64,000 bases of DNA. It comes from Myxococcota bacterium. Its GTDB lineage: Bacteria > Myxococcota > UBA4151. Within the stretch, counting starts at the first letter, position 1, and each line of letters starts with the position of its first letter. Shown in pieces: positions 48,301 to 51,300 of this stretch. A program made the position numbers. Location of the stretch: assembly GCA_036338695.1 (NCBI GenBank), contig JAYZBQ010000022.1, forward strand, positions 11,644-75,643, in the 5' to 3' direction.

Positions 48301-51300
48301 TCATAAAACCACCCAAAACGTTCGCTTCGCCTAGATATTAGCGCCCAAACTGCGTATTTACAAACCAACAAACGACCAAAACAACTTTTATGTTCCTCAT
48401 GATCCTCGCGCAGTCGCTCCTAGCGGCTCCCAATAGCGACGCCCCAAAGCCACCGGATACACGCCTCGAGCTCGCCGGTTTACCTGCCGTGACCTATCGG
48501 AGCGACGCAGGCCTGGGCGCCGGCTTGCTGGCCTCCACGGCTCGCTTTCGACCGGGCTGTGTCCCCTTCTGTTGGCGGGCGCTGACGCTACTCCAAGGGG
48601 TCATGCAGTGGGATGAGCAAGGCATAAAGGTCCCAACACGCAACGCGGTGGTCTTCCTTGACCTCCCCCAGTGGCAGCGCCCCAACTGGCGCCTCCTCCT
48701 GGCGCTGGCCAACTTCGATGATGACGAGACAGGATACCGGGGGATTGGGACGCGGCGGATCGCCGGTGGGACGCGAGGTACCCCCTCCTACGGCTGGCAC
48801 CGTCGCGTCGCCGGGTTCAAGTGGCGTCAGCGGTGGCTTGGACGACCGACGTCGCCGACGGGGTACCTCGACGCCTACCTCGGTACCGAGCTTGGCTGGA
48901 ACACCGTCACGGCGCCACCGGGTAGCCAACTCCAGCTCGACCGCAGCGCCCATGGCCGGAATCCAGACTCTTGGGCTGGTCTGATCGCACCGTATCTGCA
49001 GCCGAGCGGTGATCACCTCGAGCTCCTGGTCAGCGCCGGGGCGCTCTACGATCACCGTGACCACGAGTTCACGCCGAGCCGGGGTGGATTTCATGAAGTC
49101 AGCCTGCGCAGTGGCCAAGCAGCGGACGCAGGCCTCTGGGCGAGTCTCTTTATCGAGTCGTCGTTTTTCAAAACTCTGATCGCTCAGCGAGTCGTGATTG
49201 CGAGCCGCTTGCTGCTTGATCACGCCGTGGGTTCGGTCCCTGTGTATCGCCGCGCTGAGGTAGGCGGTCTAATCCCGCATCTCGGCGTGTCAGGCGCTGA
49301 GGGCGTCCGCGGGGTTCCGACCTATTACGAGGTGGGTCAAACCAAAGCCATCGCCAACTTCGAGCTCCGCTGGCGCGTCGTGGACCACGTCGTGGGCCAG
49401 CAAGCCCTCAGCTGGCGAGCCGTGACCTTCGTAGACGCAGGGCGGGCGTGGACCGATCTGCACAACGGATTGCTCGAGCCGCTCGATCTCGACGCACCAT
49501 GGCACGCTGCTCTGGTTGGGTTCGGTGGTGGCCTGCGTCTGCGATGGGGCCAAGCGTTTGTGCTGAGGATGGATGCGGCCTTTAGCCCCGTGACGCAAAC
49601 CAGCGGGCTCTACTTTGGGACCGACCACATTTTCTAATCGCTTGACGTCTTCACCCATCAACAGCGGGGGCAGAAGCCACCGGCTCGCCCTGCAGAAAAT
49701 CACCGCTCGCCTCTTCACGGGTCATCAGTTGATGAACGCGCAGCCCGGAGCTAAAGTTGTCTACAGATAGTAACTAGTCACGGGCTTCGCCTTGTGAGAA
49801 GAACCGGCAGCCTTGAGGCGGGGGACCAGTTGATGGACGCGATGACGCGCAGCCTGACGCTACAACTTGAGAGCCTATACGAAGAGCGCGCGTTTTTAGC
49901 GCAAGAGATCGGCGTGAGCGATGCACGCGACATTGTCGCGATGGTGCGCAGTCTGGAGGCGCAGCTGAACGACCTCTACGCACAGGTTGATCAACCGCAA
50001 AAATAATAGCCTTTTTGCACGTTTTGGCTTGCCGTAAAGGTCCAAATAGTCCAGCATAGCGACGTCTGGACAAAGAACATCATGGCTGATCAGCATTTAA
50101 CGAGCACGAGAGTTGCGGAAATCCTTGGGGTTACGGCGTCAACGGTCAAACGTTGGGCTGACGAAGGCTCCTTGCCTTGCGAGCGCACCGCTGGGGGACA
50201 CCGGCGCTTCTTGGCGTCCGAGGTCGCACGCTTCCGACAAACAGAAGCAGACACCAGCGTGGCGCATCTGGCCACGCTAAGCGAAGAAGAGTTTGACGCG
50301 CTCCCGTACGGCGCGATCGGGCTCGACGAGCAAGGGGTGATCATCCGCTACAATGCAACCGAGGCGACGTTTTCGAACCACAAGGCGGACCAAGTTCTCG
50401 GGAGGAACTTCTTCACGCAGGTCGCTCCCTGCACCAACAACCGACTCGTCTTTGGCGCTTTTCGTGATGGGATCGCGTCGGGCTCGATGGACGTGAAGAT
50501 CCCCTACACCTTCACTTATGTGATGAAGCCGACCAACGTCGTGCTTCACATGGTGCGCTGCCAAGATACCCGGACCAACTGGCTGCTAGTCCACCATAAT
50601 ACGGATTCGACCGGCTCACTTATCGTGTAAGGGCTCCCCGCCGCGACGGCGAGGAGGAGCACGAACGATGAACAAGAGCACCCTTTGGCTTGGCGCCTTG
50701 CTGGTCACTGCTTGCGGTGAGCCCTCTGAACAACCCAGCGACACCAACCGCCCCGACCTGAGCGACCTGCTCGACGCCGGGCCTGTAAGTTCGCCCGACG
50801 CAGGCGCTTCAGCAGACGCAGGCGTCGCGCCGAGCGACGCGGGGCCAAGCCCCATCGATGCCGGCGGCAACGTCGAGCCAGACGCCGGACCTCCCGCTCC
50901 GGTCGCTACCGAGCAACGCTACGCCATGAAGGCGGTCTCTGCGGTGCAACAGCGAAACCCCAGCCCGCTGGGGAACGAAGAGGTGCGCGTGACGACGACA
51001 CAGTACGTGCTGCTTGAGAGCGAGCGACTTGAAGAGGACTTCAGCTGGACAGAGACACTGTGCAGCATCACAACCAGCGAGGCGCGTTACCGGTTTGGGA
51101 TCCGCGCCAGCACCAGCTACCCGGCCGCCTTTGTGGATCACTTCCCGACCTTCGAGCGGACCGGGACGTGGACCGAAGCAGGCGAGTTCTCCGCAGGCCC
51201 GATGGCCTCGGTCGTCGGCGCTGAGCTGGCCAACCCGCTACGCGACCCACTACCCACCGAGCCAGGCGCAGGCGGGGAGATCGACTCCGACGAAGATGGT

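What a model noticed while it worked through the whole genome (the two positions that open the first line are those of the whole stretch)
50082..50630. MerR-PYP one-component photoreceptor and its light regulon
g00731 (C22:61725-62273,+; 182 aa) fuses a CarH/LitR-type MerR helix-turn-helix (aa 3-55) to a complete photoactive yellow protein (PYP) domain (aa 63-170). The PYP domain keeps the chromophore Cys (C117 = Cys69 of H. halophila PYP) and the Tyr42/Glu46 counterparts (Y90, E94). It is predicted to be a blue-light-switched transcription factor, a p-coumarate analogue of the B12-based CarH/LitR. A conserved motif TTTGGTCG(A)TTT, often in tandem ~10-11 bp repeats, marks promoters of two photolyase operons, a proteorhodopsin gene and other light-associated genes, and is the candidate operator.
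Evidence so far: PDB phmmer: aa 63-170 match PYP (1gsx etc.) at E 4e-25; aa 3-52 match the CarH-like 8jbs at E 1e-7. Alignment of 27 family members: Y90, E94 and C117 are invariant. About 66 of the 120 listed clusters in the 5.8-billion protein set share the architecture; they are named only 'MerR family regulator' or 'photoactive yellow protein'. Motif TGGT[CT]GA?TTT: 20 of 67 genome hits are intergenic although only ~4% of the genome is non-coding. Sites lie upstream of the CPD photolyase operon g00722-723, (6-4) photolyase g02192 (3 sites), proteorhodopsin g02445 (2), DUF1722 operon g00728, SOUL g00720 (2), DUF2177/GTP cyclohydrolase II g00733/734 and FA desaturase g02185 (3). Strict core TTGGTCGWTT: 8 hi [...]
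(Added by a program. Inside this text positions count along the whole contig: contig position 11,644 is position 1 of the stretch shown here. "Call 12" and the like, gene names such as g00115 and contig names such as C1 are that model's own, and its searches are not shown. The text may have been shortened before it was handed on; [...] marks where a part breaks off. The agent that wrote the report below was given it as the finding of a first reader that could run no searches.)

Follow-up and report, generated by a model that had tools for sequence, protein, structure and literature searches.

The report
Yellow-protein light sensor fused to regulator
A small bacterial protein joins a DNA-binding head of the vitamin-B12 light-regulator type to a photoactive yellow protein domain, always sits beside a tiny unknown partner gene, and probably switches sunlight-protection genes, which would give the yellow protein's signalling route a direct test.

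Summary
Confirmed. Window 50082-50630(+) encodes a 182-aa protein: an HTH_17/MerR-type head (aa 3-56) plus a PYP domain (aa 61-171) that keeps the Tyr42/Glu46/Cys69 counterparts.

New here:
1. The head belongs to the CtMerR (PDB 8JBS) branch of B12-dependent CarH/LitR regulators. All 15 head-only relatives tested carry B12-binding domains, so PYP has replaced the B12 module.
2. A matrix trained only on this genome finds the same repeats upstream of CarH-like genes with this head in other phyla. Unit pairs lie exactly 9 bp apart 27 times against 0.37 expected. This ties the motif to the head, not just to location.
3. The repeats precede orthologous light genes in sister genomes (photolyases, RudS, SOUL, GTP cyclohydrolase II). 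In this genome they also precede ferrochelatase and rhodopsin.
4. A 57-aa helical-hairpin gene (49833-50006) flanks the fusion in 10 of 10 loci. It occurs in 11 of the 12 fusion-bearing genomes and in none of the 289 others.

Not shown: chromophore loading (no TAL or pCL gene found), light switching, and repressor versus activator. Two PYP surveys do not discuss the fusion; one supplement lists a single row.

The parts
50082..50630 (+). MerR-PYP gene (182 aa). The HTH_17/MerR-type winged helix is aa 3-56 (nt 50088-50249), the low-confidence linker is aa 57-60, and the PYP domain with its two N-cap helices is aa 61-171 (nt 50262-50594).
   Evidence: AF2 model: pLDDT 84.6. Foldseek against PYP: TM 0.87-0.92, rmsd 1.1-1.6 A.
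49833..50006 (+). Gene for a 57-aa helical-hairpin protein, the conserved partner of the fusion. The longest ORF starts at GTG 49794; the ATG at 49833 matches the relatives.
   Evidence: tblastn finds it next to the fusion in L001-L009 and in none of the 136 other loci held. Alignment A3. It occurs in 11 of the 12 fusion-bearing genomes and in 0 of 289 others, always adjacent. No Pfam family. AF2 gives two helices, 3-25 and 28-52, pLDDT 76.9.
50007..50081 (+). Spacer between the partner gene and the MerR-PYP gene. A conserved block holds one canonical repeat unit (TTGCACGTT, 50015-50023) and a degenerate second unit. It may be a promoter or a weak auto-operator.
   Evidence: Conserved against L009. 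The matrix score in the window is low (best 6.2); L009 scores 15.7 at -77.
38269..38299 (-). Operator with two to three 9-bp direct repeats (matrix scores 31.1 and 16.9), 13 nt upstream of the 254-aa unknown gene 37492-38256(-).
   Evidence: An orthologue of this gene lies in the motif-bearing cluster of G005.
40886..40959 (-). Two operators (28.3 at 40886-40907; 27.8 at 40938-40959) between the DsbD_N + redoxin operon (39305-40884, -) and the SOUL haem-binding gene (40973-41641, +).
   Evidence: The motif also lies about 60 nt upstream of SOUL in G004.
42528..42618 (.). Operator cluster (23.8 at 42560-42581 +; 15.4 at 42528 +; 11.9 at 42597 -) between DUF1295 (41604-42533, -) and the SDR(DUF1731) + CPD photolyase operon (42632-44922, +). 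A TATAAT lies 19 nt after TTGGTC.
   Evidence: The promoter reading is my own inspection; the sigma-70 scan found none.
48367..48388 (-). Operator (27.2) between the RudS-type gene (TudS + DUF1722, 47351-48316, -), which heads DUF2878, SRPBCC and GFO genes (45429-47402, -), and an Omp85-like gene (48390-49637, +).
   Evidence: The motif lies between CPD photolyase and the RudS orthologue in G005.
52050..52107 (.). Operator (23.0 at 52086-52107 -; 12.7 at 52050 +) between an unknown gene (51560-52108, -) and GTP cyclohydrolase II + FAD amine oxidase (52107-53765, +).
   Evidence: In G010 the same motif lies between GTP cyclohydrolase II and a CarH-like gene.
54337..54358 (+). Operator (22.6), not among the training sites, about 95 nt upstream of ferrochelatase (54452-55504, +).

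Best explanation
The gene encodes a one-component photoreceptor-regulator of the LitR/CarH kind. In it, the B12-binding light module has been replaced by a photoactive yellow protein domain.

The head. It is a BldC/CtMerR-type winged helix. It binds head-to-tail to tandem 9-bp direct repeats (consensus TTGGTCGWT; more generally TTGnnCGnT). Each repeat has a T-rich tract and an invariant C-G.

The targets. The repeats sit at or beside the promoters of about 12 transcription units for sunlight defence and use:
- CPD photolyase and a DPRP-type photolyase
- the tRNA 4-thiouridine desulfidase RudS
- SDR and FAD oxidoreductases
- a SOUL protein and ferrochelatase
- GTP cyclohydrolase II
- a fatty-acid desaturase
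- a rhodopsin

The switch. Blue light, absorbed by a thioester-linked p-coumaric-type chromophore on Cys117, would undock the PYP N-terminal cap. The head is attached directly to that cap. Undocking would change how protomers line up on the repeats.

Direction. I think repression in the dark with release in the light is more likely (about 60:40), by analogy with CarH/LitR and because several operators overlap -35-like or -10-like positions.

The partner. The 57-aa helical-hairpin protein encoded alongside is an obligate partner. It most likely binds the PYP domain and sets or relays its oligomeric state.

Shown: the architecture, the conserved pocket, the link between operator and head, the conserved regulon, and the gene pairing.
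Inferred: the chromophore, the light response, the direction of regulation, and the partner's role.
For: Architecture and pocket:
- 27 of 27 members keep Y90, E94 and C117.
- confident model; PYP fold at rmsd about 1.5 A.

The head belongs to the CarH-like branch:
- 8jbs E 5e-9, BldC 6ama E 1e-6, TtCarH E 1.6e-4.
- 15 of 15 head-only relatives carry B12-binding domains.

The operator is real in this genome:
- Strict core: 25 hits against 3 in the reversed genome. Dimer form: 6 against 1.
- Matrix score >=17: 29 sites against 2 (the 13 training sites are included).
- 9 of 13 intergenic-type sites are preceded by T (TTTGGTCG), against 0 of 12 coding hits.

The operator belongs to this head:
- A matrix trained only on own-genome sites scores >=16 within 300 nt upstream of the head-bearing gene in 23 of 82 loci. 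That is 21 of 80 without L106 and L130, which the pattern itself had found. The rest of the loci predict about 0.26 such loci.
- Same-strand unit pairs lie exactly 9 bp apart 27 times against 0.37 expected. At 8 and 10 bp there are 0 and 1 (73 loci).
- BldC, a structural relative of the head, binds 9-bp direct repeats head-to-tail through an Arg that reads a C-G (PMC5859096, passages). The aligned Arg24 is invariant here.

The regulon is conserved:
- The motif lies upstream of DPRP in G003, SOUL in G004, and between CPD photolyase and RudS in G005.
- CarH-like genes with this head lie near CPD photolyase (7 of 80 loci), GTP cyclohydrolase II (7) and SDRs.

No rival sensor-regulator in the genome:
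- Only 2 HTH_17 and 2 MerR_1 proteins, no CarH and no BLUF.
- No B12-type paralogue was found in the 5 sister genomes.

The partner gene.
Against: - No experiment of any kind exists.
- Chromophore supply. In this 93.6%-complete assembly no 4-coumarate-CoA ligase of the PYP type was found (TIGR02372 best 50 bits against a cut-off of 334.7). The only aromatic lyase is HutH (697 bits).
- The PYP equivalog model scores below its cut-off (111.8 against 143.05). Arg52 is His.
- No sigma-70-type promoter was predicted in 38000-55000 (0 found), so operator-promoter geometry and the direction of regulation rest on my own inspection.
- In Pyrinomonadaceae the proximal repeats lie just upstream of a -35-like TTTACA, a position that also fits activation.
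- Unlike the CarH-like genes, the fusion and partner genes have no good operator in 8 of 9 related loci, nor in the window.
- Around the distant fusions L002-L008, light genes or operators appear within 10 kb only in L004 and L006.
- Across 301 genomes of the phylum, the 14-nt dimer pattern hit 51 genomes and its reversed control also hit many. I did not total the control columns. Most hits outside the class lie in coding DNA.
- The background for the matrix test is mostly coding DNA and so underrates chance in AT-rich spacers. The 9-bp spacing test covers this only in part.
- G060 has both a CarH-like protein and a fusion, so there the operator cannot be assigned to one of them.
Confidence: 0.68

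Rival explanations
1. The protein is the regulator of the repeat-marked genes, but its PYP domain is not a light sensor in this organism. With no chromophore pathway, it would stay empty or bind another small molecule, or sense redox state, and the regulon would respond to that signal.
For: No pCL over the cut-off and only HutH among the aromatic lyases. No AMP-binding or lyase gene was seen among the neighbours scanned around the fusions L002-L008 (L001 and L009 were not scanned). The PYP survey proposes loss of light sensing for some PYP homologues (PMC9664959, discussion section read). TIGR02373 scores below its cut-off.
Against: The neofunctionalised cases in that survey have lost Cys69 or Tyr42. 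Here Y, E and C are invariant in 27 of 27, and the aromatic pocket residues align (F62, F63, Y94, F96, Y98, M100 and W119 counterparts). The same survey found a TAL near only about 10% of functional pyp genes and a pCL near about 30%, so absence nearby is common. The assembly is incomplete and holds 9 matches to the ligase model, all far below its cut-off, in several generic acyl-CoA ligase-like genes. The regulon is made of light-related genes.
Confidence: 0.15
2. The protein is light-switched but works as an activator. Light-driven release of the head would allow oligomerisation on the repeats and recruit RNA polymerase, as in the LOV-HTH protein EL222 (recalled from my own knowledge).
For: In many CarH-like promoters the proximal repeat pair ends a few bases upstream of a -35-like TTTACA (own inspection). 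At the rhodopsin site the repeats run directly into TTTACG. No strong -35 is seen at most target promoters.
Against: Characterised LitR/CarH proteins are dark repressors (PMC9304148 and PMC11417400, passages). Several sites lie 0-20 nt from start codons or over -10-like positions of divergent promoters. At the photolyase operon the repeat occupies the -35 position relative to a TATAAT.
Confidence: 0.3
3. The repeats are bound by some other factor or are part of a special promoter, for example that of an alternative sigma factor. The MerR-PYP protein would then act on other, unidentified targets, and the co-location would be a coincidence of a light-gene island.
For: There is no operator at the fusion's own promoter. 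Distant fusions lack nearby sites. The TTG of the repeat could serve as a -35 element.
Against: The same 9-bp repeats lie upstream of genes for proteins sharing this head in several phyla. The only component shared by those loci and this genome is the head. Two identical 9-bp units in tandem do not look like a -35/-10 pair. BldC-type heads bind exactly this repeat geometry (PMC5859096, passages).
Confidence: 0.06

Closest known systems
CarH / class I LitR B12-dependent photoreceptor repressors (TtCarH, PDB 5c8d; CtMerR, PDB 8jbs)
   Same: An N-terminal MerR-type winged helix of the same branch (8jbs E 5e-9). Operators made of tandem direct repeats at promoters. Neighbours include photolyase, GTP cyclohydrolase II and SDR genes. 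A one-protein sensor plus regulator.
   Different: The sensor is a PYP domain (p-coumaric-acid type, blue light) instead of the 4-helix-bundle + Rossmann AdoCbl module. The repeats are 9 bp (TTGnnCGnT) rather than the 11-bp nnnnTnnACAn of TtCarH, BmCarH and myxobacterial CarH (PMC9304148, passages). There is a dedicated 57-aa partner gene and no evident autoregulation. The CtMerR paper (PMC11796333, passages) has no occurrence of the word 'operator'.
Class II LitR with a 'short' LOV photoreceptor (PmlR2 / PmSB-LOV, Pseudomonas mendocina; PMC9758184, abstract and passages)
   Same: A PAS-superfamily blue-light sensor controls a LitR-type regulator of photolyase, SDR, FAD-oxidoreductase, cryptochrome-like and pterin/flavin genes. 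RudS sits in such operons (PMC11417400, passages).
   Different: There the sensor and the regulator are two proteins, and the sensor is a flavin LOV domain. Here the sensor is PYP and is fused. LitR classes I-V as listed in that paper include no PYP type.
BldC (Streptomyces; PDB 6ama, 6amk; PMC5859096, passages)
   Same: Head similarity (E 1e-6; NF033787 54 bits). 9-bp direct repeats with an AT-rich tract and a C-G read by an Arg. Head-to-tail binding with a variable number of repeats.
   Different: BldC is a 68-residue stand-alone head with no sensor. The score here is below the family cut-off of 77 bits. The repeat sequences differ by register (AATTxxxxC against WTTTGGTCG).
Multidomain PYP proteins (Ppr, Ppd, PYP-MCP, PYP-V4R; PMC9664959 and PMC12826048)
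   Same: A PYP domain serves as the input of a signalling protein.
   Different: The known outputs are kinases, c-di-GMP enzymes and chemoreceptors. A DNA-binding output is not discussed in either survey. In PMC9664959 all 12 'MerR' and 3 'HTH' hits in the data table are neighbour genes. In PMC12826048 the main text has no HTH, MerR or DNA-binding term. Multi-domain there means over 200 aa, which excludes most of these 170-200-aa proteins. One supplement row reads 'HTH_17 PAS' for a Myxococcales MAG protein.
Rc-PYP and its PYP-binding protein PBP (bioRxiv 10.1101/2021.06.01.446672, passages)
   Same: A small protein that binds a PYP in a light-state-dependent way. This is a precedent for the 57-aa partner.
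   Different: PBP is 16 kDa and dimeric, while the partner here is about 6.5 kDa. No sequence comparison was possible because I hold no PBP sequence.

Membership tests
Photoactive yellow protein (PYP) family | PAS fold of the PYP type, including the N-terminal cap helices | tested here: met
   AF2 model pLDDT 84.6. Foldseek top 40 hits are all PYP or PYP-derived chains, TM (target) 0.75-0.92 (0.87-0.92 for PYP itself), rmsd 1.1-1.6 A for PYP over about 116 columns. The first cap helix is partly replaced by the linker (the alignment starts at PYP residue 15).
Photoactive yellow protein (PYP) family | Chromophore triad Tyr42 / Glu46 / Cys69 | tested here: met
   Y90, E94 and C117, invariant in 27 of 27 family members.
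Photoactive yellow protein (PYP) family | Score over the curated equivalog cut-off (TIGR02373) | tested here: not met
   111.8 bits against a cut-off of 143.05. The survey PMC9664959 states that this model covers only about 20% of PYP homologues.
Photoactive yellow protein (PYP) family | Covalently bound p-coumaric acid and a photocycle | not testable with these tools
   Needs expression and spectroscopy. Supporting genes were not found: pCL best 50 bits against 334.7, and the only lyase is HutH.
LitR/CarH family of light-responsive MerR-type regulators | N-terminal MerR-type HTH related to CarH | tested here: met
   8jbs E 5e-9 and 5c8d E 1.6e-4. 15 of 15 nearest head-only relatives have the CarH architecture.
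LitR/CarH family of light-responsive MerR-type regulators | C-terminal B12-binding module (class I) or its 4-helix bundle (class II) | tested here: not met
   No B12-binding or B12-binding_2 match; a PAS/PYP domain stands in its place. It would be a further class beside I-V (PMC9758184, passages).
LitR/CarH family of light-responsive MerR-type regulators | Operators of tandem direct repeats at target promoters | tested here: met
   Tandem repeats at about 12 promoters, but with a 9-bp period instead of 11 bp.
LitR/CarH family of light-responsive MerR-type regulators | DNA binding abolished or changed by light | not testable with these tools
   Needs EMSA or a reporter assay in dark and light.
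BldC family | Score over the subfamily cut-off, and a stand-alone ~68-aa head without an effector domain | tested here: not met
   NF033787 54.3 bits against a cut-off of 77. The protein carries a PYP domain.
BldC family | Binding to 9-bp direct repeats (works-like feature) | tested here: inconclusive
   The 9-bp period of the candidate operator is strongly supported (27 pairs against 0.37 expected), and the Arg aligned with BldC's C-G-reading Arg is invariant (the residue numbering offset is my inference). Binding itself is untested.
Classical MerR activators | Long coiled-coil dimerisation helix after the HTH, and a palindromic operator inside a 19-20-bp promoter spacer | tested here: not met
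   The model shows only helix 45-56 before the PYP cap. The operators are direct repeats.

The most novel reading that the evidence does not exclude
The 57-aa helical hairpin is a PYP signalling partner of the kind long sought. The pair would form a two-part photoswitch. In one light state the hairpin, probably as a four-helix-bundle dimer, clamps PYP domains together so that BldC-like heads line up head-to-tail on 9-bp repeats. In the other state, release of the PYP N-cap breaks the assembly. Weaker relatives of the hairpin lie next to stand-alone PYP genes in two genomes (G062, G102). The same partner principle may therefore serve single-domain PYPs, whose downstream route is described as unidentified in the papers read here. 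The 9-bp repeat would also be the unreported operator of the CtMerR branch of B12 photoreceptors across several phyla.
Probability: 0.35. Interest if true: 0.9.

Novelty: new variant of a known kind. Interest (0 to 1): 0.82.

Why it matters
PYP is a model photoreceptor, and the papers read here state that no downstream partner of the H. halophila protein has been identified (PMC9664959; bioRxiv 10.1101/2021.06.01.446672).

This is a natural protein in which the PYP output is simply DNA binding. It comes with a defined candidate operator, a defined regulon and a dedicated candidate partner. PYP signal relay becomes testable with a gel shift in dark and blue light.

It also shows modular exchange of light sensors on one DNA-binding head: B12 for green/UV/blue light, PYP for blue.

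It suggests an operator and a BldC-like binding mode for the CtMerR branch of B12 photoreceptors.

At 182 aa it would be a very compact natural blue-light transcription switch for optogenetics.

Ecologically, it would link rhodopsin, photolyases and tRNA s4U removal under one light switch in an uncultured lineage that carries a rhodopsin gene.

Tried and rejected
- Complex prediction. The tool answered 'queue full' or 'not sent on' every time. No job ever ran, so nothing can be said on binding.
- Sigma-70 promoter scan of 38000-55000: 0 sites, against a shuffle mean of 2.5. It gives no help on the direction of regulation.
- Phylum-wide exact pattern CGNTTTGGTCGWTT: 51 of 301 genomes hit, but the reversed control also hits many. 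29 of the 30 first loci showed no light gene or head gene nearby; one further locus, L118, had only a weak SDR match (E 6e-5). The hits in G085 and G052 and two of the three in G061 lie inside long ORFs. As a genome-count test it failed. It was useful only because it led to L106 and L130.
- Simple core-word enrichment upstream of head genes in all 80 loci: 0.54 against 0.37 per kb, not convincing. The matrix and spacing tests replaced it.
- An unbiased 8-mer enrichment in my first 'intergenic' set was swamped by missed genes (GC 0.61). GTCGTTTT ranked only about 35th, z 4.9.
- Gene neighbourhoods of the distant fusions L002-L008 are mostly unrelated: kinases, peptidases, Tol/Exb.
- No operator was found at the promoter of the fusion and partner genes.
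- RNA evidence: short contigs from two metatranscriptome runs (X1, X2) cover parts of 50129-50682 at 95-100% identity. Contigs of RNA libraries do not prove transcription. No starts or ends were seen.
- The search of earlier findings by place and by sequence returned nothing.
- A second HTH_17 protein (C48), the small MerR next to pheT-ihfA (C53) and a B12-domain fragment on C67 (followed by MeaB, so a mutase) were checked as rival regulators and dismissed.
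Full report
THE OBSERVATION. Window 50082-50630(+) is an open frame of 182 codons. 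Pfam places HTH_17, MerR_1 and MerR at aa 6-53 and PAS at aa 71-161. NCBIfam places the PYP equivalog TIGR02373 at aa 62-171 with 111.8 bits, below its cut-off of 143.05. It places the BldC-family head at aa 5-50 with 54.3 bits, below the cut-off of 77. Against solved structures, aa 63-170 match H. halophila PYP (E 3.9e-25) and aa 3-52 match 8jbs. In that alignment Y90, E94 and C117 stand at Tyr42, Glu46 and Cys69. S98 and H100 stand at Thr50 and Arg52, and the aromatic pocket residues are kept. An AlphaFold model built from 27 relatives is confident (pLDDT 84.6). Its C-terminal part superposes on PYP structures at 1.1-1.6 A. The head is a short winged helix: helices 8-15 and 19-28, a wing at 41-44 and helix 45-56. 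It is joined by a four-residue low-confidence linker to the two PYP cap helices (61-65, 68-72).

THE FAMILY. Of 120 listed protein clusters, 66 (P0002-P0067, 151-227 aa) share the architecture. Their source names are only 'MerR family', 'helix-turn-helix domain-containing' or 'photoactive yellow protein'. In 27 aligned members the triad and the head's recognition residues (K23 R24 W25 ... T36 G38 G39 H40 R41 R42) are invariant. The window's genome is 3.36 Mb in 99 contigs, 64% G+C and 93.6% complete. It belongs to a class with only six species genomes in the collection, and all six carry the fusion. In a sample of 301 genomes of its phylum, 12 carry a full-length fusion. Many others have only a stand-alone PYP or only the head attached to something else. 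The titles of the related records point to Myxococcota. On a tree of 119 PYP domains the 'fused' label needs 3 changes, against 39.2 for shuffled labels, so one or a few origins are likely.

WHAT THE HEAD IS. With the first 60 residues alone, the best solved relatives are these:
- 8jbs (E 5e-9)
- RacA (2e-7)
- BldC 6ama/6amk (1e-6)
- T. thermophilus CarH 5c8d (1.6e-4)

8jbs is CtMerR, an AdoCbl-dependent photoreceptor that is a tetramer in the dark. Its DNA-binding domain is only 25% identical to that of TtCarH. The paper has no occurrence of the word 'operator' (PMC11796333, passages). I tested 15 relatives that match only the head, and all 15 are HTH_17/MerR + B12-binding_2 + B12-binding proteins of 256-316 aa. 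The fusion is therefore a CarH-like regulator of the CtMerR branch in which PYP stands where the B12 module stands. LitR/CarH classes I-V, as listed in PMC9758184 (passages), contain no PYP type.

THE MOTIF IN THIS GENOME. The strict core TTGGTCGWTT occurs 25 times (8 in the window), against 3 in the reversed genome. 11 hits lie outside my crude ORF calls, which leave 8% uncovered. The loose form gives 67 hits, 21 outside ORFs, but 56 in the control, so as such it is not enriched. Inspection shows that the true unit is a 9-bp direct repeat, usually as a pair, for example GATCGTTTTGGTCGTTTT or ATGGTCGATTTGGTCGTTT. 9 of 13 intergenic-type sites are preceded by T, against 0 of 12 coding hits. I trained a 22-nt matrix on those 13 sites. 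It scores >=17 at 29 places against 2 in the reversed genome, and >=14 at 65 against 18 (training sites included). New sites not used for training lie before ferrochelatase (window 54337) and at a second position before the rhodopsin gene. Further new sites lie before the DPRP-type photolyase and the desaturase, and at C76 and C92.

THE FLANKING GENES (Pfam). In the window:
- an unknown 254-aa gene
- DsbD_N + redoxin, divergent from SOUL
- DUF1295, divergent from SDR(DUF1731) + CPD photolyase
- a TudS + DUF1722 gene heading DUF2878, SRPBCC and GFO genes, divergent from an Omp85-like gene
- an unknown gene, divergent from GTP cyclohydrolase II + FAD amine oxidase
- ferrochelatase

Elsewhere in the genome:
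- a rhodopsin
- a DPRP-type (FeS-BCP-like) photolyase + SDR
- a fatty-acid desaturase + TetR
- a YceI-like gene
- an adenylate cyclase
- a fumarylacetoacetase-GST-HPPD cluster

TudS + DUF1722 is RudS, the tRNA 4-thiouridine desulfidase. It lessens UVA growth delay and is often found in LitR-controlled photolyase operons (PMC11417400, abstract and passages). The set closely resembles the published LitR regulons: photolyase, SDR, FAD oxidoreductase, cryptochrome-like and pterin genes (PMC9758184, passages).

LINKING THE MOTIF TO THE HEAD. Four lines of evidence bear on it.

(a) The genome has only two HTH_17 and two MerR_1 proteins. The others are an unrelated 180-aa protein and the small MerR next to pheT-ihfA. 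It has no CarH (the B12-domain hits are MetH-size proteins and mutases, one followed by MeaB) and no BLUF protein. A CarH-like query finds only the fusion's head in the five sister genomes.

(b) Footprinting within the class. In G003 the motif lies between the amine oxidase and DPRP. In G004 it lies about 60 nt before SOUL. In G005 it lies between CPD photolyase and RudS. Gene order differs from the window in each case. L009, whose fusion is 82% identical, is syntenic with the window.

(c) In another family of the phylum (G010) the dimer motif lies in the divergent promoter between GTP cyclohydrolase II and a 278-aa CarH-like gene, whose head is 58% identical to the fusion's. In G060 three repeats lie 62 nt before a 267-aa CarH-like gene. 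The pattern search itself found these two loci.

(d) Independent loci. I scanned from -300 to +10 of the head-bearing gene in 82 loci with the matrix trained only on this genome. It scores >=16 in 23 loci (21 of 80 without the two above) and >=12 in 35. The rest of the same loci predict about 0.26 and 1.2. The hits include Pyrinomonadaceae, Calditrichia, KSB1 and others, and they generalise the unit to TTGnnCGnT. That background is mostly coding DNA. I therefore also counted distances between same-strand units T[GT]NNCGNT in the 73 non-fusion loci. There are 27 pairs at exactly 9 bp against 0.37 expected, 0 at 8 bp and 1 at 10 bp.

The only component shared between those loci and this genome is the head. 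I therefore take the 9-bp repeat as its operator.

BINDING MODE. BldC, a structural relative of the head, binds 9-bp direct repeats (AATTxxxxC) head-to-tail, one subunit per repeat. An Arg reads the C-G, and the number of repeats varies (PMC5859096, passages). The aligned Arg24 is invariant here. That it equals BldC Arg30 assumes a three-residue tag offset in the PDB chain, which is my inference. Canonical CarH operators are 11-bp repeats, nnnnTnnACAn (PMC9304148, passages). The 9-bp design is thus a difference from CarH and a likeness to BldC.

Upstream of the fusion, 49833-50006(+) encodes 57 aa. The L009 orthologue is 96% identical over the 54 residues aligned by tblastn (91% over the whole alignment), more than the fusion itself at 82%. 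tblastn finds relatives next to the fusion in all nine other full-length loci:
- same strand upstream in L001 and L009
- divergent in L002, L003 and L005-L008
- downstream in L004, at E 0.004

It finds none in the 136 other loci held, nor elsewhere in the genome. A profile of the ten sequences (A3) matches 11 of the 301 phylum genomes. These are 11 of the 12 that carry the fusion. The twelfth, G001, is 85% complete in 690 contigs, and its fusion hit is cut short. No genome without the fusion has a match. Every best hit is adjacent to the fusion gene. Two weaker hits lie next to stand-alone PYP genes in G062 and G102, which suggests that the partner goes with the PYP domain. The protein has no consistent Pfam family and is predicted as a two-helix hairpin (pLDDT 76.9). 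I could not test binding, because the complex tool never accepted a job.

MECHANISM. My best reading is a dark-state repressor that lines up head-to-tail on the repeats and is released, or rearranged, by blue light.

The step from light to DNA is inferred from what the papers read here state about PYP (PMC9664959 and the Rc-PYP preprint). Cys69 carries the p-coumaric acid thioester, and the pB state is taken to be the signalling state. That pB involves undocking of the N-terminal cap is recalled from my own knowledge. Here the head hangs directly on that cap.

The direction is uncertain. At the photolyase operon the repeat occupies the -35 position of a TATAAT promoter. Several sites lie 0-20 nt from start codons. 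In Pyrinomonadaceae the distal repeat pair overlaps the -10 of a divergent TTGACA promoter. All of this fits repression. However, the proximal pairs sit just upstream of a -35-like TTTACA, which also fits activation (own inspection). The promoter scan gave nothing.

WEAK POINTS.
- No TAL or dedicated pCL gene was found. The survey notes that most pyp genes lack them nearby.
- The PYP model scores below its cut-off.
- There is no autoregulatory operator.
- Distant fusions lack nearby light genes, except L004 and L006.
- The phylum-wide count of the exact pattern is not informative.
- G060 holds both a CarH-like protein and a fusion.
- The fusion frames of G005 and G077 each contain one stop codon.
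- RNA-library contigs covering the gene are only a hint of expression.

NOVELTY. Searches run:
- 'photoactive yellow protein' + MerR
- PYP + LitR
- PYP + helix-turn-helix, transcription factor or one-component
- PYP + DNA-binding domain, fused or Myxococc
- PYP + CarH (listing only, all optogenetics reviews)

The two PYP family surveys do not discuss a DNA-binding fusion (PMC9664959: sections 5, 7, 9 and supplement 4; PMC12826048: section 6 and supplements). The second survey lists one 'HTH_17 PAS' row and one further HTH-named sequence in its supplements, without comment. Subscription-only papers, such as the earlier PYP family review cited there, could not be searched. I therefore rate it a new variant of a known kind: a LitR/CarH-type one-component photoreceptor with a PYP sensor. 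It adds a new partner gene and a newly inferred operator type.

Noticed in passing
window 47351-48316 (-): The '2-thiouracil desulfurase + DUF1722' gene is of the RudS type, a tRNA 4-thiouridine desulfidase (PMC11417400). Here it heads an operon with DUF2878, SRPBCC and GFO-type genes under a repeat operator.
   Followed up: partly
G000 contig C35, 21530-21611 (locus L081 about 6530-6611): Repeat sites (22.4, 13.6, 11.6) lie before a fumarylacetoacetase-GST-HPPD cluster for tyrosine breakdown. This hints at a possible light link to homogentisate or pigment chemistry, or to the tyrosine-derived chromophore supply.
   Followed up: no
L130 (G060:C383) 2492-2540 and G060:C197:52893-53578: One genome holds both a B12-type CarH-like regulator with three repeats at its own promoter and a MerR-PYP + partner pair. 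Two light sensors may share one operator type.
   Followed up: partly
L004 10630-11211 (+): In this MAG a second HTH_17 protein (193 aa, no other Pfam domain) lies between the fusion gene and the partner gene. SDR(DUF1731), SRPBCC and RudS homologues lie directly upstream of the fusion.
   Followed up: partly
L014, L023, L024, L036, L043, L045, L049, L052, L055, L057, L063, L071 (upstream 230 nt of the CarH-like gene): Acidobacterial and other CarH-like genes carry two repeat pairs about 85-110 nt apart. The proximal pair lies next to TTTACA-N17-TAGAnT. The distal pair lies over the -10 of a divergent TTGACA promoter. This is a stereotyped double operator.
   Followed up: partly
G005:C148:5507-6028 and G077:C61:12605-13129: The fusion frames in these two genomes each contain one in-frame stop (TAG and TGA respectively). 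This could be sequencing error, a pseudogene or recoding.
   Followed up: no
G102:C510:5653-6537 and G062:C42:22827-23789: Weak relatives of the 57-aa partner (E about 2e-5) lie next to stand-alone PYP genes.
   Followed up: no
L006 5550-5770: In a Myxococcales MAG whose fusion is 47% identical, three repeat sites lie between an unknown 350-aa gene and a TonB-dependent-receptor-like gene, 3 kb from the fusion. SelO and MsrB genes are nearby.
   Followed up: partly
window 55506-57398 (-) and 50668-51588 (+): Two sizeable ORFs (630 aa and 306 aa) have no Pfam match. The 306-aa gene directly follows the fusion gene and is conserved in L009 (66% identity).
   Followed up: no
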